A stretch of 64,000 bases of DNA from an uncultured virus (IMG/VR IMGVR_UViG_3300042261_000615). Taxonomy: Duplodnaviria > Heunggongvirae > Uroviricota > Caudoviricetes. The stretch lies in IMG/VR virus record IMGVR_UViG_3300042261_000615; one strand, written 5' to 3'. Shown here piece after piece: positions 1,085 through 23,924 of the stretch (position 1 is its first letter; every line of letters begins with the position of its first letter). The translations under genes and the position numbers were made by a program. A model generated the notes under the pieces. It searched no databases. It saw only the letters and a list, made by a program, of their open reading frames with translations, and was not told the DNA's origin.

Positions 1085-1085
1085 A

Positions 1086-1937
1086 TTAAAATGCGAAAAA
1101 TTTACTAGCCTCTCGTTTTACACTTACAACACTTCCCCAATTTACACAATCGTAGAAATCTTGAAGTTTTTCAGTCAATTCACTATCCAATATTCGGTTA
1201 TGGTCTATATATGTTGTTATAAATTCCATAATCTCAGATGGATCATTATCACCCTTAAATGCCAATGCATCGATACCAAGTGGATTAGATTTCAAATATG
1301 CCCATTTGACCTTATCACCACTCCTAAGAGGTTCATACTTAAACGCACAATTAAAATGCTTCAAACAATCATTATAAAGTATTGCCGCTTTTACATGGGC
1401 AGGAGTACCTTTTTCCAAACTAAACGGTTGTCTTTTTTTGGGCATATATTTTGACATATCCTTTACAGCTGAATTCTTAGATATATCCACTACATTCATA
1501 CTCTTCATATTCGATCTAAAATCAGATATAATGTCTGTAACTTCATCTTCGGTTTTACCTTTCAATATACTAATCAAAACATCAGCCATTACTTTTTGAA
1601 ACGCTTTAGGAAATGAAGATCTCTTTACATCCAACCCCTTAACATCCAATTCATCCTTTGCTATACCATTTTCAGCAATAATCCATTGAGCATATCGTTT
1701 CTTCGATACCCACAAACCGCTACGAGATACAAACTCTTTCTTAATCTGAAAACGGTGGTTCTCTTTTGGTACATTAAATATACGTTCCGATAACAAATCG
1801 TAAAAATTATTAAGAAAATCCTGCGTTTCACCCGCAATACCATCCACTAGTTGTACAATATCCTCAATAGATTTATCTCTCCAATTATCATAACGATGGT
1901 CTAATAACGGAACTGCGCTAAAAAATACGGAATCCAT
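1086..1937 (-). CDS. Family-B DNA polymerase, C-terminal piece (second half of motif C, palm and thumb)
   Basis: Begins MDSVFF; KKRYA, VKGLDVKRSS, TPAHVKAA typical of gp43-like polymerases. Confidence 0.9.
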   Translation of the reverse strand: MDSVFFSAVPLLDHRYDNWRDKSIEDIVQLVDGIAGETQDFLNNFYDLLSERIFNVPKENHRFQIKKEFVSRSGLWVSKKRYAQWIIAENGIAKDELDVKGLDVKRSSFPKAFQKVMADVLISILKGKTEDEVTDIISDFRSNMKSMNVVDISKNSAVKDMSKYMPKKRQPFSLEKGTPAHVKAAILYNDCLKHFNCAFKYEPLRSGDKVKWAYLKSNPLGIDALAFKGDNDPSEIMEFITTYIDHNRILDSELTEKLQDFYDCVNWGSVVSVKREASKFFAF

Positions 1938-2021
1938 CTACGTGTCAATGTAGATGTTGAAGTCTATTCGACCCTCAGCATCTACATTGACAGTACCCTT
2001 TCTTATACTTTTAATTTTCAT
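1938..2021 (-). CDS. 27-aa middle piece of the family-B polymerase, MKIKSIRKGTVNVDAEGRIDFNIYIDT, in frame with the C-terminal piece and separated only by TAG
   Basis: Manual translation ...TAC ATT GAC ACG TAG ATG GAT TCC; YIDT plus DSVF rebuilds motif C; own upstream promoter. Confidence 0.8.
   Translation of the reverse strand: MKIKSIRKGTVNVDAEGRIDFNIYIDT
1943..1992. repeat. 14-bp perfect inverted repeat (extended RNA hairpin) inside the polymerase mini-ORF
   Basis: tgtcaatgtagatg (1943-1956) and catctacattgaca (1979-1992); the inner segment pairs further around a GAAUA loop. Confidence 0.9.
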
Positions 2022-2046
2022 TTATATTATTTTAATTAGTTTACTA

Positions 2047-2078
2047 CAAAGATACGAGAATTATTCCGAATAATCAAA
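2047..2078 (-). promoter_or_regulatory. Bacteroidota-type housekeeping promoter for the downstream polymerase pieces
   Basis: Minus strand TTTG-N20-TATCTTTG. Confidence 0.75.
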
Positions 2079-2918
2079 TATTTTAACATTTAATTTTTCA
2101 TCTATTCTAATAAATTTACATTTTAATTGATTACCGATTTCATTTTGACGAATTAAATCTCTTTCGGGCATGTCACCCCTACTATGATATTTTTCATCAA
2201 ACTCTATAACTACATTATTATCAATATCATAACCATCTACAATATATGTGGTATTTGGGATATGGTACTCACCACCGTTCTCAGCATGTTGGAACTCATA
2301 TCCGTTTTCTTCTGCATATTGTTCTATAATTGGTATTGATTTTTTATTGTAAGCAGTACATGTACCTTGCCTTATAACTCTATTTATAGCAGATTGCTTC
2401 ATTTTTTCTAATTCTTCGGGACGTTTTTTTCGTTTATAATTTCCCGATTTTTCCCCTATACAAATTTTTTTTTGAGTTACAGCATCGTTCATACTATCTG
2501 CTATTTCTTTACCATATAGTGTAACCCATTTTTCATAATAAGATGTACCATACATTGGGTTTTTTTCACCAGAATTACCTCGTTTTTTGTTATATTCAAC
2601 CCATTGTTCATAATCCCAACCGTATCTGTCTCGTTTATACTCAAATGAATTAGAATAAGACTGTTTTTCTTTATATATTTGCCATTTAATTTCACCATCA
2701 ATTTGACCATATTTGGATATCATATTATCCAATGTATTTGATCTACGATTTTGATATTCGGATTTGGCTTTGATTGCATCATCTTTAGATAATCCTTTAT
2801 ACAAATGAAAATACTCAAATGTACCAGGGGTTCTACTCAGCCGCATTTGTTCAGCTTCGGTTTCAGTATACCCGATATCAATCCAATGTTTTAATGTTCG
2901 TGCGCTTCCTTTTCCCAT
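2061..2918 (-). mobile_element. Free-standing homing endonuclease (Vsr/DUF559-like PD-(D/E)XK) between the polymerase pieces
   Basis: C-terminal VDGYD...VIEFDEKYH...RD; KYG-type repeats and NUMOD3-like GEKNPMYG; upstream TATTTATA at 2951-2958. Confidence 0.8.
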
Positions 2919-2974
2919 AATTTATATATAGATATGTTAGTGTATCCATATATAAATATAAGAAATTTAATTAT

Positions 2975-4744
2975 TTAGGCGATAAAATCATCACTTTCTA
3001 ACAAATCTTTTGCTAAAATTTCCTGTAATATACCATCTCGCTTTATAGAAACTTTACTATTTGGGTATTTAGTAATTTCGCTACCATTATCCAATGTAAT
3101 TATAATAGGAGTACCACCAAGTTCCATATTATATTTGGCATTAGCCATAGCTGCAGTAGATTTAATAACCTCCTGCCCCGTAAGTGTTACGGCTTCGGCA
3201 TTTGAAATATTATAGAACCTAAAAGCCGGGAGCCCCATGACGCCATATAAGCTATTGAGCAAAATCTTCTGTACTAACTGACGTTTTTTATAAAAAGTGT
3301 ATTTATCTTTATCACCGGCCAATCCAAATTGTTTTTCCAATTTTCTAAACTCAACACGTTGTTTGAACCAAGTATCCAAAATATCGGGAATACAACCAAC
3401 TTTATCGGTTCTGTACATAACACCATTTGATGCAACCGAATACTTTTCGGTTGTTATCATACGTTTTAGATTTTCAGCCGATATGATATTTTGACCAATA
3501 TGATATTCCGAAACTTTACCATTTATAAAATCGGATGCGTTCCAATTCTCAATCTTACCAATAAGAGTCTCGGGGCTAATATTAATGGTCATAATAATGG
3601 ATGGATACAGCGATGTTAAGTCCAAGTCATAAATCCACTCATACTTACCAGCTATGGGATCCTTAACATACGCTCCGATGAACTTTTCATCACCATTTTC
3701 ACGTAAGGCTTCCATTCGTTCTTGTCTATCAGCAGGTTTATTGGGTGCTACTAAATTCTTTCTTCTCAGATAAGTCAAAATAGCCCCCTCCAAATACTTC
3801 GATGAATATACAAAATCCTCATATGGTACATGACCAACGTGACATATCGCACGTGCCAAATCAATGAATTGTAACTTATTATTGAGTGCCACAACCAAAT
3901 CAACGTCCACTTTGTTGTATTCAATAAACTTTTCAATATCGTCCCTAAACAATTGGTCAAGATTTCCAGTATATTCAACCTTACCACGCTTCAACTCAAT
4001 ATTAGAAATAGTATCCAACCGATAATTCGGTAGTTCGGTGTAGGTATATGTTTTGTACAAATCAATGTAGTCCATATATGATACACCAGCTATAAAATAT
4101 CGTGTACGATACGGACTCCAAAAACACTGACCAATTGGTGATAATCTATTTGCATGTTGTTCACCCAACACATTCTTAATACGATTATACAACATCGGTG
4201 TATCGAACTTGTCTATATTCCACCCCGTTACAATTGTGGGATTGATCATTTCATATAAATCTAAATAACCCAAAAGTAGTTCAGCTTCACTACGATATGG
4301 TATTACTTTAGCACTTGCGGTATCACGTTCGACCATATCACCTTTAGCATCCAAAACCAATACATAATATTGGTCGGTTGCTGAATCGTGTACAGCAATA
4401 GATGTTATTGTATTTTGAGCTTTCTGAACATCTGGCAATCCACTCTCCATCTCAACTTCAATATCATATGTAAGTATGACATGACCATCCGATGAATCAT
4501 CAGAATCGGTGTATAAATCAATTAAAGCCCGTGTTGTTTCAGGAACATCCGATTCAAACAATTCAGGATCATCCTTTTTGAATTTGTAAATTTTATTCAG
4601 TCTATCACCATAAATTGATAGATATTGGCCACCTGCTGATTTTTCATAAGCATACCGTGTATATGGGAAAGAAAAGTACCCCTTCACACTATCCCACACA
4701 TGCATTAAGTTTCGTTCTCGTTGATAATAAATACTGCGATACAT
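2975..4744 (-). CDS. Family-B DNA polymerase, N-terminal piece (3'-5' exonuclease, motifs A and B)
   Basis: YDIEV, TGWNIDKFD, YNKVDV, DLDLTSLYPS, KILLNSLYG; ends before motif C. Confidence 0.95.
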   Translation of the reverse strand: MYRSIYYQRERNLMHVWDSVKGYFSFPYTRYAYEKSAGGQYLSIYGDRLNKIYKFKKDDPELFESDVPETTRALIDLYTDSDDSSDGHVILTYDIEVEMESGLPDVQKAQNTITSIAVHDSATDQYYVLVLDAKGDMVERDTASAKVIPYRSEAELLLGYLDLYEMINPTIVTGWNIDKFDTPMLYNRIKNVLGEQHANRLSPIGQCFWSPYRTRYFIAGVSYMDYIDLYKTYTYTELPNYRLDTISNIELKRGKVEYTGNLDQLFRDDIEKFIEYNKVDVDLVVALNNKLQFIDLARAICHVGHVPYEDFVYSSKYLEGAILTYLRRKNLVAPNKPADRQERMEALRENGDEKFIGAYVKDPIAGKYEWIYDLDLTSLYPSIIMTINISPETLIGKIENWNASDFINGKVSEYHIGQNIISAENLKRMITTEKYSVASNGVMYRTDKVGCIPDILDTWFKQRVEFRKLEKQFGLAGDKDKYTFYKKRQLVQKILLNSLYGVMGLPAFRFYNISNAEAVTLTGQEVIKSTAAMANAKYNMELGGTPIIITLDNGSEITKYPNSKVSIKRDGILQEILAKDLLESDDFIA

Positions 4745-5847: not shown

Positions 5848-5848
5848 A

Positions 5849-7621: not shown

Positions 7622-7660
7622 AATTTACTTTTTAAATTTATTATTACCAAAGTTATATTA

Positions 7661-8517: not shown

Positions 8518-8532
8518 TACAATTTATTTTTA

Positions 8533-8563
8533 CAAATATACTATTTTTTTTTCAGATTGCAAA
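8533..8563 (-). promoter_or_regulatory. Bacteroidota-type promoter
   Basis: TTTG-N19-TATATTTG. Confidence 0.65.
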
Positions 8564-9316: not shown

Positions 9317-9321
9317 ATAAT

Positions 9322-9501
9322 CTATTTAAGATGTTTCCACGTTTTACGTTTCGTTATTTCGCGGATATTCCAAGAACTCACCTTAAAGTTTCTAGCAATA
9401 ACATTATCGGAAAACCCCTTTTCATGTAACTCTCGGATTTTCTTTACTTGTTCATTTGTCAATTTTGCTTTTGGGTGCATTTCCCCCCGCAATCCGCTCA
9501 T
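9322..9501 (-). CDS. Small helix-turn-helix protein resembling the DNA-binding tail of HNH endonucleases
   Basis: GEMHPKAKLTNEQVKKIR...IARNFKVS...KTWKHL; start set at the ATGA overlap. Confidence 0.65.
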   Translation of the reverse strand: MSGLRGEMHPKAKLTNEQVKKIRELHEKGFSDNVIARNFKVSSWNIREITKRKTWKHLK

Positions 9502-10130
9502 ATCGAAAACCATTTATCAGCCCCTTTAATTATAGGGTGATACCACCCCAATATCTTACGCATCTTATTACGTTTCATATGGATTGGATATAACCATATG
9601 TTCTTCGGCAGCCCTTCACATATTACAGCCTTACCCGTTTTAACATCTTCCCTCATTCGATATGAATAATCCCTATCTATAGATAATGAGCGTGGGTGAT
9701 ATATTTTACCTTCCCATTCCACCCACTTTGTAGCCGATGTCTGCCCTATATGTCTAAAGTTAGCAGCTTTGTATATAGTACCCATATGTCCTACAGAGGT
9801 ATCGCTGTATGACAATACATTTTCATATTCAGTATTTGTAGATATCCATTGGATAATTTGTCCCAAAAACCAGCTCTCACTATTTTTTGGAGCAGCATCA
9901 ACACACGCCATTCTACGAATATCTATACAATTTTTATAACGATTTTCATGTCTCGGTTTACCCAATACAGCACCCCCAACCAAATCATTATCTATTGTCA
10001 TAGCGAAACAATTACTTATACCGCCACCCATATGACCACGCTTATAGTGAAACTCTTCAAATATATGTCGAATATCACTAAAATCACACAGATATATTTT
10101 GCAACGCGTTTTATCTAAAACTTCATCCAT
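9498..10130 (-). CDS. Mom-like GNAT-fold DNA base-modification protein, paralog 3
   Basis: FEEFHYK, IDIRRMAC, PKNSESWF, VLSYSD, HMGTIYKAANF; start set at the TAATG overlap. Confidence 0.75.
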   Translation of the reverse strand: MDEVLDKTRCKIYLCDFSDIRHIFEEFHYKRGHMGGGISNCFAMTIDNDLVGGAVLGKPRHENRYKNCIDIRRMACVDAAPKNSESWFLGQIIQWISTNTEYENVLSYSDTSVGHMGTIYKAANFRHIGQTSATKWVEWEGKIYHPRSLSIDRDYSYRMREDVKTGKAVICEGLPKNIWLYPIHMKRNKMRKILGWYHPIIKGADKWFSI

Positions 10131-10495
10131 TATTCCCAAAAACAATGATTTGTTGGTTTAATATCACCCACCTTCTTTTTCTTATCAGTATACTCAATTT
10201 TATCCGAATTATGTAGTTCCCAATCGATACGGGCCTCTGCAATTTCGAAATAATCCGGTTCACGCTCAATACCTATAAAGCTCACACCTTCACGTATTGC
10301 AGCTTTTCCGGTACTACCACTACCCATAAAAGGGTCTAACGTAACACCACCCTTTGGAGTAACCAATCGTATAAGATATGACATTAGGTCTACTGGCTTG
10401 AGCGTCGGGTGCGTATTCGATTTACCAGTATGCAGCGTAAAATGTATTTTTAGTTCGTCTGGTAATTTATCGTATTGCTGCTTTGATAGTTTCAT
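10130..10495 (-). CDS. Split DNA methyltransferase, C-terminal SAM-binding piece
   Basis: NTHPTLKP, LDPFMGSGSTG, FIGIERE; complements the ORF at 11275-12924. Confidence 0.85.
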   Translation of the reverse strand: MKLSKQQYDKLPDELKIHFTLHTGKSNTHPTLKPVDLMSYLIRLVTPKGGVTLDPFMGSGSTGKAAIREGVSFIGIEREPDYFEIAEARIDWELHNSDKIEYTDKKKKVGDIKPTNHCFWE

Positions 10496-11216
10496 ATATA
10501 TAATCTTTATTTAATTTAATATCGCTTTCCCAAAATCTTAATACAGTATAACCAGCTTTACGCATATATGCATCTTGACTTTTATCCAGATTCATTCTTT
10601 TTAATTGTCTATGGTCAGGAATGCCCCCTTTTAATTTGGTGGGGTGACCGTGCCAATAATCACCATCCCATTGTATTACTATTTTTTTATCAACTAATAC
10701 AACATCAACTAAAAATTTATCAAATAGTAATTGCTGACATTCATATTCAACCCCTATATCGTTTAATATAAAATTACCAGCAATTTCTAATCCATTCAAC
10801 CCCTTCCTATTTTGTTGTGACTGGTTTGCTTTTATATTGGATTGTCGCCATTCATCATCACTATTTCGACATACGATAGAACAAAATTTAGTTTCATATT
10901 TTCTGCCATCGGCAAGACTTTTACTTATAGCAAATTCAGTGCCGCATGTTTTACATATAAAACGTGATTTATTTCTAGATTGCCAAATAATCTGACACGT
11001 ATTTCCACAAAATCGTTTAGATTGGGTTTTTGTAGTAAAATGGTTACTACATATTTCACATTGCTTTTCTATAATATATCTAAAAGTTCTAGTAGGTCTG
11101 TAAGTATCATAACATTTGCGAGAGCAGTATTTTTGGTTTTTATTAAAATGACCACCAACAGTCTTACCGCATGACACGCACAAAATTTCTCTATATTTAT
11201 ATTCACACTTACCCAT
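10467..11216 (-). mobile_element. Free-standing homing endonuclease (zinc-ribbon repeats plus DUF559/Vsr-like domain) splitting the methyltransferase
   Basis: CxxC...YCSxxC repeats; VDVVL...IQWDGDYWH...D...GYTVLRFWE; TATTTATA at 11249-11256. Confidence 0.85.
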
Positions 11217-11274
11217 AATAATTCATTAAGTTAAAAGGTTTCACTGTGTATAAATATAAAAAAAATAATATAAA

Positions 11275-12924
11275 TCATAAATATTTTTTAATTTTTTCTA
11301 ATATTTCTAATGCAACACCATCGTTTAATATATAAAAATCATCACCCAACCCTTCATTGCGTTCCGATTTGGATACTTTTGGACAATAAAAGAATCGAGA
11401 AGCACCACCCATATCATCATATTCGCAATTAACTTGAACTTCGGTACTATTGTTTAATTTTATCGGGTTACTTATATCAGCCGTTCTTTTATTTCCTTTT
11501 ATAGATTTACTCACACCACTTTGTTCATCCAACAGTTCCCCCGCTTCTTCATCCAAAATTATATTAGCAGGCCATCTACCCAAAGTTTGACCATTAGTTT
11601 GGTGTGTTTCTTGAGCTTTACTATAACCATAAATACCTTTGCTTACGGCACTATCACTACCCCGACTATGGTTCGTTATAGTTTCATCTGTAGCTATTCT
11701 ACACCCGTCTATGTTAATCCCACCAGTACCCCATTTCAGTACGTTGTCTGCAACAGTAGGTTCGGATAGTGGTTTTCTACAAAGTGTCCACAATTCCATA
11801 GCAGGTTTAAGAGCTGTGCCTCGGCCGTCAAATTCTGCTACATGGTTTTTTAGAATATCTACCATGCTTGAAATTAGGAGCTCCATTGTGGATACCGTAA
11901 TAATGACATTGATGACAGTAGGTAATTCCGTTTGAGATAACATGCCGCAACTCGGGGTATTCTGAACATAATTTAATATGATGGGCTTCAAGTTTTTTAT
12001 TATCTCCGCATATTGTACATTTATATCCATCTCGTTCAAGTACCGAACGTTTCCATTGTAAATCTTCTGGACTACGTCTACCTTGAGACTGTCCATTATT
12101 TTTTCTTCTAAAAGAGGATGAGCATTTATGGGAACAGAAATTATGTTCGGAGTGGATGATGTTAGTATTTGGTTTTCGTACTTCAAGTCCACAGTATTCG
12201 CATTTAATAACATTTGAGTTTGCAAGAGATCTGCAGGATTTACTACAATAGTTGTGTGCCCCTCTAGTGTGTGACAAGTTTCTATCAAATTCACTTCCGC
12301 AATTATCGCATTTGACTCTAATTTTAGTTGTGTGTCCGATACCGGAGCACTTTTTACTACAGTATTTTTTTTCGTTATATGATTTCCAGCATCTATCTGT
12401 TGTTTTGGGGATAACTGTTCCGCATGTTTCACAATATCTAAGTTCACGTTTTTCCATAATTCATATATATCTTTACTATAAGTATCAAATTTTTTAAAAT
12501 TGTCAATTGATTTATAGATATTTTTTGATATATTCATACTTTTCGGGAATCCGCTTCCATATACCCAGGCAACAATATCCCTGATTTCAAACCCAGCAAA
12601 TCGCAGACTAGATGCCATCCAATCCTGCGTTCTAGTACCACATGCGACCAGCATATACCCCCCCGGTTTCAATACTCGATATACCTCCTTCCATAATATA
12701 GGTTGGGGTACGAACGAATCCCATTCCTTTCCCATAAAACCACCACCCTTTACTTCATGGTATCCGCACTTTACCCATGATGTCATCACGTCTACAATGT
12801 CGGGTTCTTTTCCAAGTCCGTATGGAGGGTCTGTAACAATACTATCAACCGAATTGTCATCCAATTCTTTTAGCCTATCTAAGCAATCTCCTAATAATAA
12901 TTTAATGTTTCCGTTATAACTCAT
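11275..12924 (-). CDS. Split DNA methyltransferase, N-terminal catalytic piece, with a ~225-aa in-frame insertion
   Basis: GDCLDRL, TDPPYGL, WVYGSGFPKS, GTALKPA, GRWPANII, ASRFFYCPK; no FxGxG motif. Confidence 0.85.
   Translation of the reverse strand: MSYNGNIKLLLGDCLDRLKELDDNSVDSIVTDPPYGLGKEPDIVDVMTSWVKCGYHEVKGGGFMGKEWDSFVPQPILWKEVYRVLKPGGYMLVACGTRTQDWMASSLRFAGFEIRDIVAWVYGSGFPKSMNISKNIYKSIDNFKKFDTYSKDIYELWKNVNLDIVKHAEQLSPKQQIDAGNHITKKNTVVKSAPVSDTQLKLESNAIIAEVNLIETCHTLEGHTTIVVNPADLLQTQMLLNANTVDLKYENQILTSSTPNIISVPINAHPLLEEKIMDSLKVDVVQKIYNGNVRYLNEMDINVQYAEIIKNLKPIILNYVQNTPSCGMLSQTELPTVINVIITVSTMELLISSMVDILKNHVAEFDGRGTALKPAMELWTLCRKPLSEPTVADNVLKWGTGGINIDGCRIATDETITNHSRGSDSAVSKGIYGYSKAQETHQTNGQTLGRWPANIILDEEAGELLDEQSGVSKSIKGNKRTADISNPIKLNNSTEVQVNCEYDDMGGASRFFYCPKVSKSERNEGLGDDFYILNDGVALEILEKIKKYL
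11828..12457 (-). mobile_element. HNH homing endonuclease nested in the methyltransferase gene in a different frame
   Basis: Zinc-ribbon repeats, then VLERDGYKCTICG...LEAHHIK...NGITYCHQCH; promoter variant TACTTATA at 12477-12484. Confidence 0.85.
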
Positions 12925-13664
12925 TCCCAAAAATTATTTGAATTTTTATTTAATCTTTTATTTATAATTTCAATATACTCTATATTATTTTCAATTAAAA
13001 TACAATTTCGATTATTGTTTATACACACATCACCCAAAGTGCCACTACCAGCAAAATTATCCAATATAATATCACCCTCATTTGTAAATAACTTAACCAA
13101 TCGTTCAATAAGTTGATATGGTTTTTGAGTCGGATGCTTTAATTTTTCCCTACTATTATGCGGTAATGCCGGAATATCACTCCAAACGTCACTCATAGTT
13201 ATACCATCTTTTAGAATGCCTGTATAATATTCTTTTCTGTCGGTTTTTGGTTTGATTTTAATATTATTAAATGTACCCCCACTCCCATTAGTATAGTAAC
13301 AAATCGGTTCATATCCACTAGCTAAAGCCGTACCACGGGTATTATTAAATGCGCGTTTTCTAGCCCAAATTATTATTCGTTTTTCATTAAAAAATTCATC
13401 TAATATGGTTGATATTTTGCGATTATATTGACGGCCTGTAAAGATAATTATATTACCCCCATCTTTAATAATTCGTTTATATTCCACTATAATACGTCGG
13501 CACCAATCCAAATACTCAACTTCAGTACTCCATTGATTATCCCAATCTTCTTTAACTACTTTATAAAATGGCCAATCTGAAATTATATGATCTATACTAT
13601 TGGTATCGATATTCCCAAGTTCCTCTATACAATCCCCATAAATAATATTTGCGTTTACACTCAT
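12921..13664 (-). CDS. N6/N4 DNA methyltransferase (beta class) with atypical motif IV DWPF
   Basis: GDCIEEL, SDWPFY, HPTQKP, DNFAGSGT. Confidence 0.85.
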   Translation of the reverse strand: MSVNANIIYGDCIEELGNIDTNSIDHIISDWPFYKVVKEDWDNQWSTEVEYLDWCRRIIVEYKRIIKDGGNIIIFTGRQYNRKISTILDEFFNEKRIIIWARKRAFNNTRGTALASGYEPICYYTNGSGGTFNNIKIKPKTDRKEYYTGILKDGITMSDVWSDIPALPHNSREKLKHPTQKPYQLIERLVKLFTNEGDIILDNFAGSGTLGDVCINNNRNCILIENNIEYIEIINKRLNKNSNNFWE

Positions 13665-16497: not shown

Positions 16498-16992
16498 TTA
16501 TCCCAATCCTGAAACTTGTGGAGGTTTACCCCCAATCGGCATTGTTTCCATATATTTTTTATGAAGTAATTGTCTATCTTCTTCAGCACCACTCCTACTT
16601 GCTTTTTGCGAAATAATACCATCGGTTGATGTAGGATTATACACTTCAATAATTCCATGATTCGTGTCCATTTTTGTGGGAAACGTCAATCCATCCGGAC
16701 CGAATCTGTTTTTCATAATATGAATACGAGCAGTATTATTCAATTTATCTTTCGATTTTCTACTTAAACTTATAATGAAGTCTGCGTTCATAACCTTTGC
16801 ATATGAATCCGCAACTTTGTCAGCTTCAATTACCTCACTATCTACAGATGAATTATGGGTATATATATCATTGGCGTAGAACATATGCGTATCCGCCACT
16901 GTTATATCAATCGTTTCCAACTCACCAATCATTTCTATTGAAACGATTTCATCCAAATCAAAATCATTAATATCTAAAGTATGTTTATTCAT
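16498..16992 (-). CDS. Replicative helicase piece 3: 47-aa IntC (16852-16992) plus C-extein
   Basis: TIDITVADTHMFYANDIYTHN|SSVD; ADSYAKVMNAD, MKNRFG. Confidence 0.9.
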   Translation of the reverse strand: MNKHTLDINDFDLDEIVSIEMIGELETIDITVADTHMFYANDIYTHNSSVDSEVIEADKVADSYAKVMNADFIISLSRKSKDKLNNTARIHIMKNRFGPDGLTFPTKMDTNHGIIEVYNPTSTDGIISQKASRSGAEEDRQLLHKKYMETMPIGGKPPQVSGLG

Positions 16993-17956
16993 ATAAAAAT
17001 TTAATACATTGCCCAATAACAACACTTTTATTCTTCATATAATTCTCATATTTTACACGAAGAACATCATAGTTATGCGATTTCAAAAACAAATCACGTT
17101 TCATATCACGATATGTATCATGCCAATACTCACAGTCAAATTCAATAATTTTATGCTTAAACTTAAAATCAACTCTGTGTAATTTTATCAAATTATCAGT
17201 ATGTTCATAAAACTTATACTCTTCATTTAATTCATAAAAATATACGTCAGATTTCATATTATCAGGCAAATGGTTATATATTTGCCAAAATAACGTTTGT
17301 GATGATTTGGATACTCCATTAAATTCCAATGGTTTGGTAATTGCTGATAACCACTCAGTATATTTCACAGTTCCATCAATTTCACCATATTTGGATACCA
17401 TACGGTCTAATGTAATTGCATATTTTTTGCAATTCTCTTCGTATTTAATCCTACCAGCATCTGCCCCATATCTATTTACAAATGATTCAAGTGATATGTT
17501 ATCTTTAATTTTAGCACATATTTCACGACCATAGATTTCACCATATTCGTCTATATATCGTTGCCGAGATACTTTATATGATTGAATTCTATTTCGTTCA
17601 CTCCATTTAGTATAACCAACATCAACACCATGTCGTTCCTGATATTCTTCTAATGTTCTTCCGTTTTTCCACTTTTTATCTCTAAAATTATCTTTTTGAG
17701 TTTTTAGTTTTTTAGAAACAACAGCATCCCATCGTAATTTTCCATCAATATCACCATATTTATCAATATAATATTGTAAATTAAAAGTAGATTTCTTTTT
17801 AGATAAATTTTTAACATAATCATCACCATATTTAATACGTAATTCGTCCTTCGTCTTACCAAATTTTGATTTGTGGTCATTCCACATTCGAAGTCCTTCA
17901 CGCTCTCCGTATTTATTTATCCACGCTTGTTTTACAGATGCCATAATTTTTAACAT
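16985..17956 (-). mobile_element. Free-standing homing endonuclease (DUF559/Vsr-like) between helicase pieces 2 and 3
   Basis: KYG...G...W repeats; VDFK...IIEFDCEYWH...RD...YDVLRV; TATTTATA at 17969-17976. Confidence 0.8.
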
Positions 17957-17993
17957 ATTTAGTGTATATATAAATATAACAACATCACAAAAA

Positions 17994-19121
17994 TTACGTG
18001 TTTTTTTCACTTTTTTTTGTAAAAAGTTTATCACCTACCTTCAATCCCATTTCTATTGATTTCAAATTACCATATTTTGTCGGAAATTGGTGCTTAGCTG
18101 ATACATCTATGGTTTTTCCACTTTTTAATGTTATACGATATACTGCTTGAGTTCCAATTGGAAATACATTAGTAACTGGTTTATATCCATCCGATGTCAA
18201 AACCACATCCCCCTCTTTAATTTTTCCAATTTGTATTTTACCAGATGGGGTATCTACAACACTATCCAGTGCGAGGCATCTATTTGCCTGGCTTGCGGTC
18301 CATATTGGTATACCAAGTTCGCCACCCATACCCCGTAGTTCAATATAAATACCACCCTGTTCACCATAGGTACTATCGGATTTGTTTGTATGCGATAACA
18401 ATAAATCAGCGTAATCAACTATTATCAAATCAGGTTTATTGCCCAATGCAATCATCTTTTCAATATGGGCTTCCAGTTTTTTGGAGGTTATGCCTTTAGG
18501 TGGAAAATATTTAATTAATAGTTTACCTTTCAACTTTTTTATCTTCTCATATACTACATCCGATTTTTCCTTCAAATCAGATGAGGGTATTCCTGTAAAT
18601 ATCGTATCATACCGAGCCCCTACATATTTTTCCGATAATTCAAGTGTATAATGTACAACAGTCTTTCCAGCCTTAACTGCTTGAGCGCCTATGGCATTTA
18701 ACACCCATGTATTATGGGATAGTATCCCATTCGAATAAAAGCAATGTACTTTATCAACAGATAAGTCATATAATATCTTATCAGTTTTCTCTTTTATTTC
18801 TTTAATTTTAGTCACACCAGTTTCAGTCTCTATTATATCGCATGTAATATCAATATCTTTAACAGATTTCCACTCACCGTTTGCCTTCAATTTATGATCC
18901 CAACCACACTCAAGAGTCTTATTATTATTAAAATACAAACGTATTGATTTCTGTTTTACAGTTCTACATACTTGAGGTACTGTATGATACCCGTATGGTG
19001 TGTTTACCTTCAATTCATACGGAATATCAACAAAATAATCTTCAATTTCAGGAATATCATTTTTATTAAAAAAATCGTCAACCCTAATACTTTCCCGTTT
19101 CGTTTTAGTGTGAATTACCAT
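17994..19121 (-). CDS. Replicative helicase piece 2: 137-aa IntC (18711-19121), middle extein, 94-aa IntN (17997-18278)
   Basis: YDLSV...FYSNGILSHN|TWVL; YTLELSE, IIVDYADLL, WTASQANR|CLALDSVV...SAKHQF. Confidence 0.92.
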   Translation of the reverse strand: MVIHTKTKRESIRVDDFFNKNDIPEIEDYFVDIPYELKVNTPYGYHTVPQVCRTVKQKSIRLYFNNNKTLECGWDHKLKANGEWKSVKDIDITCDIIETETGVTKIKEIKEKTDKILYDLSVDKVHCFYSNGILSHNTWVLNAIGAQAVKAGKTVVHYTLELSEKYVGARYDTIFTGIPSSDLKEKSDVVYEKIKKLKGKLLIKYFPPKGITSKKLEAHIEKMIALGNKPDLIIVDYADLLLSHTNKSDSTYGEQGGIYIELRGMGGELGIPIWTASQANRCLALDSVVDTPSGKIQIGKIKEGDVVLTSDGYKPVTNVFPIGTQAVYRITLKSGKTIDVSAKHQFPTKYGNLKSIEMGLKVGDKLFTKKSEKNT

Positions 19122-20013
19122 CTACAATATTTTTTATTTTTTTCAAAATCTCATTTTTGTCATCGTTGTATTCGTTCTCCCATACAACAATAACGGTATA
19201 ACCAAGTCCTTCCAAATATTTTATTTTAGTGTAATCATATTCCCAGATTTCCTTAGCCGTTTTACGTATATGCGGATGTATATCCAACTCATTAAATATA
19301 TTTGGATGACAATGCCAATATATTCCAAAGTATTCAATCACTATATTATCAATGAGAATATCCACATTATAGTGTCCGATAAACGTATTAGCAATTGCAC
19401 TATCGGTTATACTACTAATAATGTTATTATATAATTCAATCTCACCATTGCTACGATATATACTATCAGCTGAATCCCCGAAATGAGATATCCACACATC
19501 GTTACCTACATTATCGATATGCCGGCGAAGTCCTTCAGATATACGATGCTTAGATTCGGTCGAATGGTGTCTCCCACTGAATTTAGGTGAACGACTTGAT
19601 AATTTACGTTGAATTTGCCCAACCATATCTCTAGCTAAACTGTCGTCAAGCCCTCTCCGTTTCCAGAATTCCACACTAAATGATGTTGGTGAAATATCGT
19701 AGTTACGTTTCTTAGAGTTACTACTTTGTATAGTTCGTACACGTTCTTTAGCAGAAATTTCATCCATACCACACCCCATCCAATATTTATAATCGAAAAT
19801 TGATTTACGATTTTCATTCATTTTGGATATCCAATATGGATCTTTCATACGATCTGCCCACAATTTAGATAATTTTTCTTTTTGAGTACCACTCATACTA
19901 TGTACCGATTGTACATTGTATTTTGATTTATAATCAGCAATACTCATATTATGTTTTCGAGTTATATGCGTAATCAAACTGAGCCCTTCAAATCCACAAA
20001 TTTCACATCTCAT
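19105..20013 (-). mobile_element. Free-standing homing endonuclease (zinc finger plus DUF559/Vsr-like) between helicase pieces 1 and 2
   Basis: CEICG...H...H; VDIL...IEYFGIYWH...D...GYTVIVVWE; TATTTATA at 20030-20037. Confidence 0.8.
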
Positions 20014-20052
20014 AATAAATTACCTTTTATATAAATATAAAAAAATATTTTT

Positions 20053-20844
20053 TTATGCGGTCTTACCAACGCCTAATGATAATAATTTTTGAACTTGATA
20101 TGCATACATAAATTCTGAATCACTAATATATATTTTATCCCAAGGTTTGAACCACGCTATAAGTTTATCCGTTAGTTCAAACCCAATTTCGTCATATTCA
20201 ATATCAATAATTGTATCACCACCAACGCATTTCCCAACACCTGACGGAGCGACTACAACTGCCAACTCACCCGGACCTAACCCCCCTTGCATCAATTCAT
20301 CAATTACATCAAACCCAGTTGGTACAGTATCACGGTTTTCATCAGTTACACGATCTGTGTAATCCAACAAATAATCATGACCCAACTCACTATCGACTCC
20401 AATCTTCATAGCGGAATCAACCAATTCTTTAATTCTGTCGTAATTTCCCGATTTAAGCAAATCCACAGATTGAATAATTGCGTTTTTAAGATTTTGATTT
20501 ATACAAAATGCCGAAAACTCATTTTTTATATAATCAGCATCGGTTGCATCTATATTATCATAGATTATTTTAAGTTGTTCCACAATGGACTTCATCAACG
20601 ATTTGTTGTCCATTTTGGAAAGTTCAACCTTAAACACTTCAATTGTCGGAATTCGTCTATAATTTTTGTAATAATTTAATATCTCTTCAACTATCCATTT
20701 ATTCGATTCCGATTCAAAAAACTTTTTATGGATTAATTCACTCAATGAATCCAATAGTTTAATATCTGATAATAACGCTGATATGGTTTTTTGTTGAAAA
20801 GAGTGGCCGTATTTTTCCAGCGTATCTGTATTATTTGTACTCAT
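20053..20844 (-). CDS. Replicative DnaB/gp41-like helicase piece 1: N-extein plus short IntN (20056-20229)
   Basis: VPTGFDVID..MQGGLGPGEL, Walker A APSGVGK|CVGGDTIIDI. Confidence 0.92.
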   Translation of the reverse strand: MSTNNTDTLEKYGHSFQQKTISALLSDIKLLDSLSELIHKKFFESESNKWIVEEILNYYKNYRRIPTIEVFKVELSKMDNKSLMKSIVEQLKIIYDNIDATDADYIKNEFSAFCINQNLKNAIIQSVDLLKSGNYDRIKELVDSAMKIGVDSELGHDYLLDYTDRVTDENRDTVPTGFDVIDELMQGGLGPGELAVVVAPSGVGKCVGGDTIIDIEYDEIGFELTDKLIAWFKPWDKIYISDSEFMYAYQVQKLLSLGVGKTA

Positions 20845-21953: not shown

Positions 21954-22391
21954 TTACTCATCCAACAAAGTACCAACCGATAACTCGTCTTCTGCTATCT
22001 GATTGCTCTTATATTGTGATATTGTTGCATCGCATATCTTGCTATACACATCATCTCTCATATCGGGGTGTGATGTCAATATATCTTCAAAATCTTTTGA
22101 TTGAAATTTTATCTCCTCACCTGTAGTTTCATTCACATACGTATACCACGCACCACCCTGCTTTATGATACCATAATCTTTCATAGCACTTATCCAAGCG
22201 CCATAGTTATCGATACCACGGTCAAAGAATATATCGAAATCAGCGGATCTCAATGGTGGGCCCATTCGATTCTTTATAACCTGCGCCCGTACTTTAATAC
22301 CAACAACTTGTTCTTGACCTTTAACTTTTGCTTTGATAGTTCCCATATTTTTCAACCTAAGCCTAACTGATGCGTGAAAAGCCAATGCTTT
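21954..22391 (-). CDS. recA: RecA/UvsX 3' exon
   Basis: KALAFHASVRL, VIKNRMGPP, GAWY; follows the intron terminal G. Confidence 0.9.
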   Translation of the reverse strand, partial: KALAFHASVRLRLKNMGTIKAKVKGQEQVVGIKVRAQVIKNRMGPPLRSADFDIFFDRGIDNYGAWISAMKDYGIIKQGGAWYTYVNETTGEEIKFQSKDFEDILTSHPDMRDDVYSKICDATISQYKSNQIAEDELSVGTLLDE

Positions 22392-23558
22392 CATTTTGTT
22401 ATCGTATAACCATTTAAGTTATACATCTTATGGTTTCCCATAAGTTCGGACTATATCTTTATCAAACTTATTTACACAATTTAACACATACGATTCATTC
22501 ACATCGGATTCAAATATCCTAATTACGTTATATCCAAATGATTCAATTTTAGATTGTCGTTTTATATCAGCATCCCATATTTCATGTGCAGTTACAATTC
22601 GATTTCCAGGATATTTAATTATATCATCGGCTTTGTACTTTTTGGGGTTTGCGTGCCAATAATCACCGTCAGCTTCGATAATCAAATTATATTTGGGTAT
22701 ATATACATCAACATAAAATTCACAAATACTATATTGAGGTATATAGTGTATATTACATTTATCCAATACCATTTTTATGAATTTTTCAATTTTAGTATCT
22801 CTACTTCCACCGGGCAATCTATTTTTAATTTTCCACTCTTCGAGTTTAATATTAGCAATATCCTCACCATACTTGTCACACCAACGTTGCCAATTTGATT
22901 TTTTATAATGAATATGATTCACACCTTTTGGTGAGGTAAGCATGGTTGAACATTTTTCTGGATTATTTCTAACATATTCACTCATAACATTACTCATTTT
23001 CACCCGATATCCATCACTTTTAATAGTTTTAATCAAATTATGCAATCGTTTTGGGTTATTGATAACATTTTTTTGAAGGTTTCTAATATGTTGTTTATTC
23101 TCATCGGAATTTACCCAATCGGATAATTTACGTTTGTGAGAATCGGCAATCATATCAGAATTCGGATATAACGCTTTATATTCGATTGTTGTTATATTGT
23201 GTTTGTCACGTAAATGTGAATTTGTTATGGATTTATAATATTTTCCACACACTTCACATCGTAATAAATTAGTTTGATATTCGGCACTCATGGTATTTTT
23301 ATCTTAATTATTCTATATATAAATATAATGGAATGTGAAATCTTTACCCAATTTCAATTAAATTCCAAAAAAAGATTAATCATACTAGTCTCTGAACCTC
23401 CATCTCATCACTAAGATGTTTGGCTGCTGATTGTCCAATATTTTATTTTTCAAACATTCGCACTTATCGTTACCGATTATGCTGTAGTATAAAATCTCTA
23501 AGGAGTTTCCAGCAATTCACCGAATTTTTTATAGTGGAAGCAAAGCTTATTTAGTTAT
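22392..23558 (-). ncRNA. Group I self-splicing intron in recA (1167 nt)
   Basis: Minus strand P AATTGCTGGAAA, Q AATCAGCAGCC, R GTTCAGAGACTA, S AAGATATAGTCC; exon ends in U (GGT), intron ends in G; guide GCTTTGCTTCCACT pairs with both exons; splicing restores TTSGG|KALAFHAS. Confidence 0.92.
22428..23291 (-). mobile_element. Intron-encoded homing endonuclease (zinc finger plus DUF559/Vsr-like)
   Basis: CEVCG...H...H; YVDVY...IEADGDYWH...GYNVIRIFE; 3' end overlaps intron element S; TATTTATA at 23318-23325. Confidence 0.85.
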
Positions 23559-23924
23559 ACCACCACTTGTTGTATTATGGTTCAACTGACCATTTGCCCA
23601 ATAGCATTCAGTATCATCTACTGAAATGTCTACTACATTCATTTCACCTTTTACTAAAACCGCATCCGGATGATCTTTTAGATGAATGAACGAACCATTG
23701 TAATCAACTCTATGATTACCAGTTCCGGTTAATCCACCTAATTGATAAAACTCGGTTACTTTCGGTTTCACTAAAAAATTAGTAATTTCTTTATAAACCT
23801 CGCCAACATCCGATTCGGATTGTACATGCAACCCCATCCCCTCAATATCAAAGGTTTCGGGATTACTATAATCCATTTCAAATAATCTAGCAAGTTGATC
23901 TAATGTTACTTCATTTTTTATCAT
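23559..23924 (-). CDS. recA: RecA/UvsX piece 2, 5' exon: 117-aa IntC plus five extein residues TTSGG
   Basis: GTGNH (block B), VVDISVDD..CYWANGQLNHN|TTSGG. Confidence 0.88.

What the first reader, a model, noticed from the sequence alone, without database searches (positions are those of the whole stretch)
1921..2021. Catalytic YIDTDS motif of the replicative polymerase broken by a precise TAG-ATG insertion
Seen: the minus strand reads TAC ATT GAC ACG TAG ATG GAT TCC GTA, i.e. YIDT-stop-MDSVF. Removing six bases gives a perfect family-B motif C. TAG is a normal stop elsewhere in the window, and both flanking frames are intact. Known: motif C is a beta-hairpin whose second Asp is catalytic, and it is a frequent intein insertion site; T4 gene 60 shows programmed ribosomal bypass. 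Inference: either the enzyme has three chains with an active site shared between a 27-aa peptide and a chain starting M-D-S, or the ribosome hops 6 nt from ACG to near-cognate AUG. Either way the insertion could destroy a homing endonuclease target. Plain readthrough would give DTxMDS, which is unlikely to work.
Basis: partly seen in the sequence, partly recalled or inferred. Interest (0 to 1): 0.92.

Follow-up and report, generated by a model that had tools for sequence, protein, structure and literature searches.

The report
Six-base ribosome-hop gap in phage polymerase
An uncultured lake phage carries a stop codon plus three extra bases inside the catalytic motif of its DNA polymerase gene, next to a conserved RNA hairpin and a selfish nuclease gene, and ribosomes most likely hop over these six bases, a rare way of reading a gene.

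Summary
On the minus strand, ACG TAG ATG GAT (1943..1932) splits YIDT|DS, motif C of a T4-like family B polymerase.

The 27-residue "peptide" is the leader of a second polymerase cistron. The gene is already split by a Vsr-like homing endonuclease gene.

Eleven further gap variants from metagenomes carry 5- or 6-base inserts at the same phosphodiester:
- A stop codon directly follows the Thr codon in 12 of 12.
- The codon just before GAY is ACN (8), ATG (3) or GCT (1). Each can pair with the Thr anticodon by Watson-Crick or G-U pairs.
- 5 of 12 have no ATG, GTG or TTG to start the downstream frame.
- All 12 have a co-varying hairpin of 7-13 contiguous bp whose 3' arm ends 0-1 nt before the Thr codon. 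None of 82 ungapped relatives has it.

Best reading (about 0.55): a short, hairpin-assisted +6 hop, a miniature of the T4 gene 60/MobA cassette.

Main rival (about 0.2): termination and restart at the ATG, giving a three-chain enzyme.

No protein or RNA evidence exists. This scan has noted the same design on other phage DNA. I found no paper describing it.

The parts
2975..4744 (-). First polymerase cistron (polB-N, 589 aa): exonuclease domain, motif A and fingers. Polymerase homology ends at ...KYNMELGG.
   Evidence: Pfam PF03104 and PF00136; phrog_262 profile positions 91-587 of 856.
2978..3112 (-). 45-residue C-terminal extension (CTE) of polB-N, absent from unsplit relatives.
   Evidence: tblastn with the window's N-piece reaches query residue 586-589 in 9 of 9 gap loci that hold the end of the N-piece. 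Unsplit relatives run KYNKELG...YIDTDS without it. Its length matches the ~44-aa CTE of the MobA element (preprint 10.1101/2022.08.31.505936, section 6).
2061..2918 (-). Free-standing homing-endonuclease-like gene (285 aa) with a restriction-endonuclease-like (Vsr-like) C-terminal domain.
   Evidence: phrog_22677. It aligns with three paralogues in the window, with invariant D228, E239, H245 and D254. Four endonuclease-like ORFs of the window reach Pfam DUF559 above its cut-off: those three and 10467-11216. The modelled C-domain 188-285 matches Vsr 1cw0_A (Z 7.1, rmsd 2.8, 85 aligned) and I-Bth0305I 3r3p_B (Z 6.9, rmsd 3.1, 77 aligned). A homologue in L004 carries NUMOD3 motifs.
1941..2021 (-). 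27-codon leader of the second polymerase cistron: the N-terminal extension MKIKSIRK..., then a stretch homologous to the parental sequence, ending ...DFNIYIDT.
   Evidence: ORF list. 32 protein clusters of relatives carry such a leader fused in frame to YIDTDS....
1944..1991 (-). RNA hairpin. 5' arm 1991..1979 (GTCAATGTAGATG), 22-nt loop 1978..1957, 3' arm 1956..1944 (CATCTACATTGAC, the codons for IYID). It ends directly before the Thr codon.
   Evidence: 13 contiguous Watson-Crick pairs. A 106-nt fold gives -32.9 kcal/mol, z -5.85, with 0 of 200 shuffles as good. Across 12 variants 95.6% of cells pair, against 12.5-42.6% with the partner slid, and 4 of 13 pairs show compensatory changes.
1941..1943 (-). 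Proposed take-off codon ACG (Thr, last residue of YIDT).
   Evidence: The same position is the last sense codon in all 12 gap variants.
1935..1940 (-). The 6-nt gap: TAG stop (1940..1938) plus ATG (1937..1935). ATG is the proposed landing codon and also a possible restart codon.
1086..1934 (-). Body of the second polymerase cistron, starting at the catalytic Asp of motif C (DSVFF...) and covering the rest of the palm and the thumb.
   Evidence: Pfam PF00136; phrog_262 profile positions 580-840; 57-64% identical to 80 IMG/VR relatives.

Best explanation
The polymerase gene has been invaded by a homing-endonuclease cassette with the same layout as the T4 MobA/gene 60 element. It adds a 45-residue extension to the upstream half, then the endonuclease gene, then a new leader for the downstream half, then a short untranslatable gap at the 3' end of the cassette.

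The enzyme is made as two chains, not three: polB-N (589 aa) and a roughly 309-residue polB-C. Proposed steps for polB-C (all inferred, none shown):
1. Ribosomes start at the leader ATG (2021) and read 27 codons to ACG (Thr).
2. They meet TAG in the A site.
3. A fraction does not terminate. The peptidyl-tRNA-Thr lets go of ACG, the mRNA slides six bases, and the anticodon re-pairs with AUG (A-U, G-U wobble, G-C).
4. Decoding resumes at GAU, giving an uninterrupted YIDT-DS motif.
5. The hairpin drives the slide. Its 3' arm lies in the E site and the mRNA exit channel at take-off, so its re-folding behind the ribosome would pull the mRNA forward.

What is shown: the sequence layout, its recurrence, the hairpin with its covariation, and its strict link to the gap.
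For: 1. Exact recurrence. Searches examined 44 loci plus the window. Sixteen loci plus the window are polymerase loci; 28 are chance matches. They collapse to 12 gap variants, two of them (L099 and L126) near-identical strains. All 12 inserts sit between the Thr codon and GAY. All 12 begin with a stop (TGA 6, TAA 4, TAG 2).
2. Landing codon. The three bases before GAY are ACN in 8, ATG in 3 and GCT in 1. Every one can pair with anticodon positions 35 and 36 of tRNA-Thr by Watson-Crick or G-U pairs. Skipping from the stop through that codon restores YIDT|DS exactly in all 12.
3. No start codon. 5 of 12 variants have no ATG, GTG or TTG in the downstream frame (GTA three times, TTA once, CTG once). 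Yet DS[VI]FF... stays conserved with synonymous differences. In L094 and L122 the next in-frame Met is 25 codons further on.
4. Weak stop context. The base after the stop is C in 9 of 12. From recall, this is the weakest termination context in E. coli.
5. Hairpin. 12 of 12 gap variants have it (7-13 contiguous bp; folds of -12.0 to -28.1 kcal/mol). It ends 0 nt (10 variants) or 1 nt (2 variants) before the Thr codon. Three ungapped split loci fold at -6.9 to -7.8 kcal/mol. All 82 ungapped loci have at most 3-5 bp at that place. Covariation: 4 of 13 pairs change on both sides, and 0 of 500 shuffles reach the observed score. The sense strand folds better than the antisense strand in 10 of 12.
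6. Cassette behaviour. On a quick tree the gap state is scattered among ungapped split relatives (11 changes, at least 5 forced by well-supported branches). L123 (gapped) has a nearly identical C-piece to P0027 and P0028 (ungapped) but a different leader.
7. Same architecture as the MobA element: CTE ~44 aa, endonuclease, NTE, homologous region, bypass cassette, with the insert ending at the landing codon (preprint section 6).
Against: - There is no protein, RNA or reporter evidence for any of these loci.
- In this window the landing codon is AUG, a start codon, and the base after the stop is A, not C. ATG recurs in 3 of 12 variants and in 3 protein clusters that begin MDS (one of them identical in its C-piece to variant L087). 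That looks like selection for a restart.
- Unstimulated stop-hops in E. coli are inefficient (recalled).
- The hairpin lies 5' of the take-off codon, unlike the gene 60 take-off stem-loop. It could serve another purpose, such as mRNA stability or endonuclease regulation.
- If each cassette arose separately by copying local sequence in inverted orientation, covariation would not prove selection on RNA.
- In the window and L087 the antisense strand folds slightly better.
- The host and its tRNAs are unknown. No tRNA gene lies in the window.
- Several variants come from related sampling campaigns, so independence is limited.
Confidence: 0.55

Rival explanations
1. Termination and restart, giving a three-chain polymerase. 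Ribosomes stop at TAG, release the 27-residue leader peptide, and restart at the adjacent ATG. The motif C beta-hairpin is then assembled from the peptide's C-terminus (YIDT) and a chain beginning fMet-Asp-Ser, together with polB-N.
For: UAGAUG is a classic stop-start junction. ATG lies directly before GAY in 3 of 12 variants (TAGATG, TAAATG and overlapping TGATG) and in protein clusters P0021, P0043 and P0084, which begin MDS. Four further variants offer TTG or GTG overlapping TGA. In the ATG variants the base after the stop is A or T rather than the weak C.
Against: 5 of 12 variants have no ATG, GTG or TTG, and a 5-nt insert changes frame, so a restart cannot be the general mechanism. It explains neither the hairpin kept in all three ATG variants (13, 13 and 11 bp) nor the conserved ACN before GAY. 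No Shine-Dalgarno-like run lies before the ATG (read by eye). A free formyl-Met on the metal-binding Asp and a cut in the catalytic turn are likely to harm activity (inference from family B polymerase structures, recalled).
Confidence: 0.2
2. Some other way of removing or tolerating the insert: an RNA-level event (transcript realignment by RNA polymerase at the hairpin, or processing and ligation), or translation through the insert with two extra residues tolerated.
For: The hairpin directly upstream could act on RNA polymerase as well as on ribosomes. Two protein clusters read YIDT-QI-DS and YIDT-QFT-DS in frame (P0094, P0080).
Against: No repeat long enough for transcript realignment flanks the gap. 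Rfam found no intron or ribozyme in 1000-5000 (best E 0.16, an unrelated motif on the other strand). Five- and six-base introns are unknown. The 5-nt inserts cannot be read through in frame. TAG is an ordinary stop in this window.
Confidence: 0.08
3. A damaged gene. The insert is a scar of endonuclease cutting and repair in a defective or decaying phage genome, and polymerase activity comes from elsewhere or not at all.
For: The rest of the genome is not held, so a second polymerase cannot be excluded. The genome is riddled with endonuclease genes.
Against: Twelve variants in lineages whose C-pieces are only 39-66% identical to the window's keep both reading frames, the stop, the landing codon and the hairpin. 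No other polymerase domain was found in the 64-kb window, although only the larger ORFs were scanned. The phage reaches word depths of 15.6 and 27.1 in two runs of a lake sample.
Confidence: 0.07
4. Assembly or sequencing artefact.
For: None found.
Against: Two separately assembled runs agree without a difference across 1935-1940. Homologous gaps occur in other metagenomes.
Confidence: 0.01

Closest known systems
Phage T4 gene 60 translational bypass within the MobA homing-endonuclease element. I read Manning and Atkins, bioRxiv 10.1101/2022.08.31.505936: abstract, passages, and sections 6 and 19. Huang 1988, Bonocora 2011, Samatova 2014, Chen 2015 and Agirrezabala 2017 I saw only in its reference list, and otherwise recall.
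   Same: An essential replication-related gene is split by a free-standing endonuclease gene. There is a ~44-45-residue extension on the upstream half, and a new leader plus a homologous replacement stretch on the downstream half. The untranslatable insert sits at the 3' end of the cassette, inside a catalytic acidic motif. The take-off codon is directly followed by a stop, with a matching or near-matching landing codon. Some relatives have lost the endonuclease but keep the gap (L086, L092, L118).
   Different: The gene is polB rather than topoisomerase. The endonuclease is Vsr-like rather than HNH. The gap is 5-6 nt rather than 50 (20 in the preprint's Aeromonas clade). No stem-loop contains the take-off codon; instead a strong, conserved hairpin ends just 5' of it. 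In the preprint the 5' stem-loop is the poorly conserved element (section 19). The word 'polymerase' does not occur in the preprint's main text.
Split gp43 (43A/43B) of Aeromonas phages 44RR and 25 (Petrov, Karam and co-workers; seen as cited in PMC2677866; details recalled).
   Same: A T4-like family B polymerase encoded as two cistrons, in one case with a free-standing endonuclease gene between them.
   Different: There the endonuclease is GIY-YIG and one phage has a group I intron. No stop-containing mini-gap in motif C is reported, as far as I recall.
Fractured genes with Vsr-like endonucleases (Dassa et al. 2009, PMC2677866; passages read).
   Same: Aquatic phage-like DNA in which replication genes are cut in two with a Vsr-like endonuclease gene between the parts. 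The same window holds a helicase fractured in this way, with intein halves.
   Different: Those genes are rejoined by split inteins. The polymerase pieces here show no intein domain. The paper considered bypassing only as an unlikely alternative for its gaps of hundreds of bases.
Short tRNA hops over stop codons in E. coli (Weiss, Dunn, Atkins and Gesteland 1987, +5 and +6 hops; recalled, not read here).
   Same: Peptidyl-tRNA leaves a codon next to a stop and re-pairs with a synonymous codon 5-6 nt downstream.
   Different: Those were low-level events in reporters. Here the design is natural, conserved, lies in an essential gene and is coupled to a hairpin.
Inteins at the motif C (pol-c) site of family B polymerases (recalled). 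One relative, LR756508, reads ...VVHN|TDSVFY (by eye; not tested with a profile).
   Same: The same few codons of motif C are targeted by a mobile element.
   Different: An intein is removed from the protein. This insert is only 6 nt long, contains a stop and lies one codon downstream of that intein site.

Membership tests
Programmed translational bypass of the gene 60 type | Take-off codon directly followed by a stop (or hungry) codon | tested here: met
   12 of 12 gap variants: TGA 6, TAA 4, TAG 2. In the window: ACG TAG.
Programmed translational bypass of the gene 60 type | Landing codon that matches the take-off codon, with decoding resuming at the next codon to give the conserved protein | tested here: inconclusive
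   A synonymous Thr codon in 8 of 12. AUG in 3 (including the window) and GCU in 1 need a G-U pair. Skipping restores YIDT|DS exactly in 12 of 12, but no product was observed.
Programmed translational bypass of the gene 60 type | Stem-loop that contains the take-off codon and forms in the A site | tested here: not met
   The gap is only 5-6 nt. The conserved hairpin lies wholly 5' of the Thr codon.
Programmed translational bypass of the gene 60 type | Nascent-peptide signal in the exit tunnel | tested here: inconclusive
   The leader starts with a conserved basic MKIK[KS]I[RK] stretch 15-30 residues before the Thr codon. Ungapped split relatives have it too, so it is not specific to the gap.
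Programmed translational bypass of the gene 60 type | A single polypeptide made across the gap | not testable with these tools
   Needs mass spectrometry or a reporter assay. No RNA run holds the stretch.
MobA-type mobile bypass element | Layout of CTE, endonuclease gene, NTE, homologous region and gap, with the insert ending at the landing codon | tested here: met
   against section 6 of the preprint.
MobA-type mobile bypass element | HNH endonuclease MobA, inserted in the topoisomerase large-subunit gene | tested here: not met
   The target is polB. The ORF has no HNH match and shows a restriction-endonuclease-like fold.
Vsr-like (EDxHD) homing endonucleases | Restriction-endonuclease-like catalytic domain with conserved acidic and His residues | tested here: inconclusive
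   The ORF itself has no Pfam hit. Four endonuclease-like ORFs of the window reach DUF559 at 21.6-34.4 bits (cut-off 20.6); three of them are aligned with this ORF, with invariant D228, E239, H245 and D254. Fold matches of Z 7.1 to Vsr and 6.9 to I-Bth0305I are tied with other nucleases of the fold. Foldseek gave nothing at E <= 0.001. The EDxHD name is recalled.
Family B DNA polymerase (T4 gp43-like) | Exonuclease domain, polymerase domain, and motif C YxDTDS | tested here: met
   PF03104 and PF00136 in the N-piece, PF00136 in the C-piece. Motif C is complete only if the six bases are skipped.
Split-intein fractured gene | Intein N and C halves at the broken ends | tested here: not met
   No Hint or intein family in the polB pieces. 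The helicase middle piece in the same window does have them (PF14890, PF07591). The extension and the leader lack the Cys/Ser start and the His-Asn end (read by eye).
Group I intron with a nested endonuclease gene | Ribozyme core flanking the endonuclease ORF | tested here: inconclusive
   No Rfam intron match in 1000-5000 at E up to 10. A divergent intron cannot be ruled out, and it would not remove the TAG.

The most novel reading that the evidence does not exclude
Hairpin-plus-stop mini-gaps of 5-6 bases are a general, mobile device. Homing-endonuclease cassettes would use it to sit inside the most conserved catalytic codons of essential phage genes: the gap blocks re-cutting of the target, while a hairpin-driven ribosome hop rescues the protein. 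The polB motif C cassette would then be one family of a wider class that also includes the gene 60 element, with many natural variants (landing codons ACN, AUG and GCU; three stop codons; loops of 6-37 nt) ready for mechanistic tests.
Probability: 0.45. Interest if true: 0.92.

Novelty: new variant of a known kind. Interest (0 to 1): 0.8.

Why it matters
As far as I know, and as the Manning and Atkins abstract says for T4, efficient programmed bypassing in bacteria and phages has been shown at the bench only for T4 gene 60 and its topoisomerase homologues.

A second, unrelated family would be valuable for these reasons:
- It sits in the catalytic motif of the replicative polymerase.
- Its gap is only 5-6 nt, and its only obvious RNA signal is a hairpin at the mRNA exit side.
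- That makes it a minimal natural system for testing how mRNA re-folding moves a ribosome without translocation.
- It shows how selfish endonucleases can colonise codons that cannot mutate.
- Gene callers break or truncate such polymerases. Among the 120 listed relatives, 24 clusters start downstream of the catalytic Asp.

If the three-chain alternative were true instead, it would be an equally unusual active site built from two polypeptides.

Tried and rejected
- Near-identical phage DNA: none in the phage collection (megablast).
- Group I intron or other Rfam family around the endonuclease gene and gap: nothing relevant.
- TAG reassignment: rejected. TAG ends 7 other ORFs, and 5-nt gaps in relatives change frame.
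- A second polymerase gene: no whole genome is held. No further polymerase domain was found in the window ORFs I scanned. ORF 31196-32482 has only a weak partial match to a PHROG named DNA polymerase and no Pfam hit.
- RNA evidence: no RNA holder listed, and one metatranscriptome laid with nothing on the stretch.
- Independent-sample check of the six bases: the run of the other study does not cover 1934-2026.
- PDB sequence search with the endonuclease: only chance-level rows. Foldseek: nothing at E <= 0.001.
- Endonuclease-based locus search in IMG/VR: only 3 loci, not informative.
- A fixed 7-nt gap pattern in IMG/VR found 0 loci. The relaxed 5-nt pattern refound only 3 known contigs.
- The gap pattern in 185,579 prokaryote genomes gave 43 loci, 0 of them polymerase.
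- T4 gp39 extension against the window's extension: a 20-residue blastp match at E 0.039 in a tiny search space. I do not take this as homology.
- Split-intein remnant idea for the extension and leader: no profile support. I keep it only as a resemblance seen by eye.
- The careful tree search did not finish, so a quick tree was used.
- No complex prediction was run.
- Literature: searches found no paper on a bypass or hop in a phage polymerase gene.
Full report
**Observation.** One search shows the minus strand reading ...AAC ATC TAC ATT GAC ACG TAG ATG GAT TCC GTA TTT TTT. ACG is at 1943..1941, TAG at 1940..1938, ATG at 1937..1935 and GAT at 1934..1932. One search lists a 27-codon ORF (2021..1938; it ends ...DFNIYIDT) that abuts a 283-codon ORF (1937..1086; it starts MDSVFF...). 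TAG is an ordinary stop here. Of 70 minus-strand ORFs, 42 end in TAA, 20 in TGA and 8 in TAG, counting this one. The six bases are not an assembly slip: contigs of two runs of one lake sample (one may be the window's source) bridge 1935-1940 with no difference, at word depths 15.6 and 27.1. A run from another study holds only 1779-1929 and 2077-2400.

**Gene layout.** All genes of the window lie on the minus strand. The order is as follows:
- polB-N, 4744..2975, 589 aa (Pfam PF03104 and PF00136).
- An endonuclease-like ORF, 2918..2061, 285 aa (phrog_22677).
- The 27-codon ORF.
- polB-C (PF00136).

Polymerase homology in polB-N ends at ...KYNMELGG. A 45-residue extension follows. Unsplit relatives lack this extension, but it is conserved in split relatives: tblastn reaches query residue 586-589 in 9 of 9 gap loci that hold that end.

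The 27 codons are not a stand-alone peptide gene. Among 120 listed relatives of polB-C, 32 protein clusters start with a similar leader (MKIK[KS]I...) fused in frame to ...NIYIDTDS[VI]F.... The gene is therefore a two-cistron polymerase, as known for some Aeromonas T4-like phages (cited in PMC2677866). The finding is a further interruption inside the second cistron.

**The same gap elsewhere.**
- Of 80 IMG/VR relatives of polB-C (57-64% identity), 79 read YIDT|DS without interruption. One (L004) reads ACG TAACC GAT behind an endonuclease homologue and a 28-codon leader.
- A degenerate DNA pattern allowing 1-12 extra bases between YIDT and DS[VI]FF found 7 loci in IMG/VR and 37 in JGI/ENA metagenomes. 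Sixteen of these 44 are polymerase loci and 28 are chance matches.
- With the window they give 12 gap variants:

| Locus | Thr codon, insert, next codon |
|---|---|
| window | ACG TAGATG GAT |
| L087 (= L091, L105) | ACG TAAATG GAT |
| L092 | ACG TGATG GAT |
| L086 | ACC TGACA GAC |
| L089 (= L004, L114) | ACG TAACC GAT |
| L111 | ACG TAACA GAT |
| L122 | ACG TAACT GAT |
| L094 (L095 is a related strain) | ACT TAGCT GAC |
| L099 (= L117) | ACT TGACT GAC |
| L126 | ACT TGACG GAC |
| L118 | ACT TGACT GAT |
| L123 | ACG TGACG GAC |

L099 and L126 are near-identical strains that differ in the third base of the codon before GAC. The same pattern found no polymerase locus among 43 matches in prokaryote genomes.

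**Rules the gaps obey.**
1. A stop codon follows the Thr codon directly in 12 of 12.
2. The codon just before GAY is ACN in 8, ATG in 3 and GCT in 1. With the anticodon of a tRNA-Thr, ACN pairs normally at the first two positions, AUG needs a G-U pair in the middle, and GCU needs a U-G pair at the first position.
3. Leaving out the stop through that codon restores YIDT|DS exactly in all 12.
4. The base after the stop is C in 9 of 12. From recall, this is the weakest termination context in E. coli.
5. In the downstream frame there is an ATG in 3 variants, TTG in 3 and GTG in 1. The other 5 have none of these (GTA three times, TTA once, CTG once). The 5-nt inserts also change frame.

Despite rule 5, DS[VI]FFS... 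is kept with synonymous differences (GAT/GAC, TCA/TCC/TCT, GTA/GTC/ATA). That stretch must therefore be translated by ribosomes coming from the leader frame. Thirteen further protein clusters of 271-274 aa begin at a Met about 10 residues after the catalytic Asp. That is what a gene caller produces at such loci, but I could not see their DNA.

**The hairpin.**
- In the window, 1991..1979 (GTCAATGTAGATG) pairs perfectly with 1956..1944 (CATCTACATTGAC, the codons of IYID). The loop is 22 nt, and the stem ends directly before ACG.
- A 106-nt fold gives -32.9 kcal/mol, z -5.85, with 0 of 200 shuffles as good.
- All 12 variants have the hairpin: 7-13 contiguous pairs, ending 0 nt (10 variants) or 1 nt (2 variants) before the Thr codon, with folds of -12.0 to -28.1 kcal/mol.
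- Three ungapped split loci fold at -6.9 to -7.8 kcal/mol with no such stem. All 82 ungapped loci tested have at most 3-5 pairs at that place.
- On the alignment of the 12, 95.6% of 136 cells pair, against 12.5-42.6% when the partner is slid by 1-3 columns. Four of 13 pairs change on both sides (12 cells). No shuffle of 500 reaches the observed covariation. Examples are GTC/GAC against ATC/GAT, AAT/ATT against GAT/ATC, and GTA/TAC against ATA/TAT.
- The sense strand folds better than the antisense strand in 10 of 12, owing to G-U pairs. The window and L087 are the exceptions.

**Cassette behaviour.**
- On a quick maximum-likelihood tree of 66 C-pieces (20 gapped, 32 split and ungapped, 14 unsplit), the gap state needs 11 changes, at least 5 of them forced by well-supported branches. 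Unsplit rows more than 90% alike had been dropped, and the careful search did not finish.
- L123 (gapped) has almost the same C-piece as P0027 and P0028 (ungapped) but a different leader. The swapped unit therefore ends at the gap.
- The endonuclease gene is complete in the window, L094 and L123. It is cut off at the contig end in L089. It is partial in L099, L117 and L126, a 50-residue remnant in L122, and absent in L086, L092 and L118. L087 has another 630-nt spacer.
- Two ungapped split loci (L131, L132) also have the endonuclease gene upstream. The gap is therefore not obligatory for carrying it.

**Comparison with what is known.** Manning and Atkins (bioRxiv 10.1101/2022.08.31.505936; I read the abstract, passages, and sections 6 and 19) describe the T4 MobA element. 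Its parts are a ~44-residue extension on gene 39, the HNH endonuclease, an N-terminal extension of gene 60, a stretch homologous to the deleted parental sequence, and then the bypass cassette. [quoted passage not shown]

The locus here has the same parts in the same order, with these differences:
- The gene is polB.
- The endonuclease has a restriction-endonuclease-like fold. The evidence is paralogues reaching DUF559, Z 7.1 to Vsr and Z 6.9 to I-Bth0305I, tied with other nucleases of that fold, and no Pfam hit for the ORF itself.
- The gap is 5-6 nt rather than 50.
- The conserved RNA element lies 5' of the take-off codon and does not contain it.

The preprint's main text never mentions a polymerase. 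Four literature searches found no description of a hop or bypass in a phage polymerase gene. Dassa et al. 2009 (PMC2677866; passages read) describe Vsr-like endonucleases that fracture replication genes, which are then rejoined by split inteins. The polB pieces show no intein domain, whereas the helicase of this window does.

**Mechanism proposed (inferred).** Ribosomes start at the leader ATG and reach ACG with TAG in the A site. At that moment the 3' arm of the hairpin lies in the E site and the mRNA exit channel, while the 5' arm and loop are already outside. Re-folding of the stem would pull the mRNA forward. The peptidyl-tRNA-Thr leaves ACG and re-pairs six bases on with AUG (five bases on with ACN in most relatives), and GAU is read next. 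The product is a second chain of about 309 residues with an intact YIDT-DS motif, and it joins polB-N. The extension of polB-N and the leader may help the two chains to associate, as proposed for other endonuclease-split enzymes (PMC3045599; search listing and start of the abstract only). I did not test this. The role of the gap in protecting the motif C codons from an endonuclease is likewise only an inference from the gene 60 case.

**Rivals.**
- For this window the strongest rival is termination at TAG and restart at the adjacent ATG, giving a 27-mer and a chain starting Met-Asp-Ser. ATG recurs in 3 of 12 variants and in 3 protein clusters, and the base after the stop is A here. But restart cannot work in the 5 variants without a start codon. 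It also explains neither the hairpin, which all three ATG variants keep, nor the conserved ACN. Both routes may run side by side.
- RNA-level removal, tolerance of two extra residues, a decaying gene and an artefact are each less likely (see the rival entries).
- Two clusters read YIDT-QI-DS and YIDT-QFT-DS in frame (P0094, P0080). Their leaders look like hairpin-type leaders, but I could not see their DNA, so they remain unexplained.

**Verdict.** I file this as a new variant of a known kind: programmed bypass linked to a homing-endonuclease cassette. It rests on comparative sequence evidence only. This scan has noted the same design before on other phage DNA (e1-5951006, e1-5697327; similar mini-gaps in dnaE in e1-5940006 and e1-3286731). 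Those notes are unchecked and are not independent support.

Noticed in passing
window 16498-20844 (minus strand): The DnaB/gp41-like helicase is fractured into three pieces (20844..20053, 19121..17994, 17025..16498) by two Vsr-like endonuclease genes (20013..19105 and 18034..16985). The middle piece carries an intein C-half (PF14890) at its start and a Hint N-half (PF07591) at its end. This is the 'fractured gene' arrangement of Dassa et al. 2009.
   Followed up: partly
window 21954-24690 (minus strand): The UvsX/RecA-like recombinase is split (24690..23911 and 22394..21954) by an endonuclease gene (23291..22428; DUF559 and a weak Vsr match). An unexplained 125-aa ORF (23924..23547) overlaps the end of the first piece. 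No intein domain was seen. I did not check for a gap or a hairpin.
   Followed up: partly
window 10130-12930 (minus strand): A DNA methyltransferase is split (12930..11275 and 10495..10130) by another endonuclease gene (11216..10467; DUF559, and PHROG families named HNH and homing endonuclease).
   Followed up: no
window 7714-10145 and 4744-7621: Three Mom-like paralogues (phrog_1384) and two large ORFs without any family match lie just upstream of the polymerase. Earlier scan notes describe similar Mom-type modification genes beside polB in related phages.
   Followed up: no
window 62048-62626: A GIY-YIG homing-endonuclease gene lies next to the major head protein gene (63958..62717).
   Followed up: no
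window 33267-34883: A phage-encoded GroEL-like chaperonin (phrog_5725, E 4e-173).
   Followed up: no
L002 (LR756508.1) 2981-4846 and 6237-7631: In this 484-kb uncultured phage the polymerase C-part is preceded by what looks like an intein ending ...VVHN directly before TDSVFY, that is, inserted one codon upstream of the gap site. A clamp-loader-like ORF also seems to hold an intein. Read by eye only.
   Followed up: no
proteins P0094 and P0080: Two split polB-C proteins read YIDT-QI-DSVFF and YIDT-QFT-DSIFF in frame. Their leaders resemble hairpin-type leaders. The Q may be a stop read under another code by the gene caller, or a real codon. No DNA was available.
   Followed up: partly
proteins P0092/P0098, P0102/P0118 and P0083: Their N-termini read ...STPEA-DSVFF...TSTRKS-DSIYF and MYT-DSVFF. 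These look like gene calls in the downstream frame across longer (about 7-11 nt) stop-containing gaps. This is inferred from the residues only.
   Followed up: no
L004 1725-2462: A second endonuclease gene lies directly downstream of polB-C. It has a zinc ribbon, three NUMOD3 motifs and the same C-terminal nuclease domain as the window's endonuclease.
   Followed up: partly
window 1938-1995 (minus strand): In the window's minimum-energy fold the stem extends by four more pairs, which take in the A and G of ACG and the UA of the TAG stop. By eye this extension is absent in L087; I did not check the other variants.
   Followed up: partly
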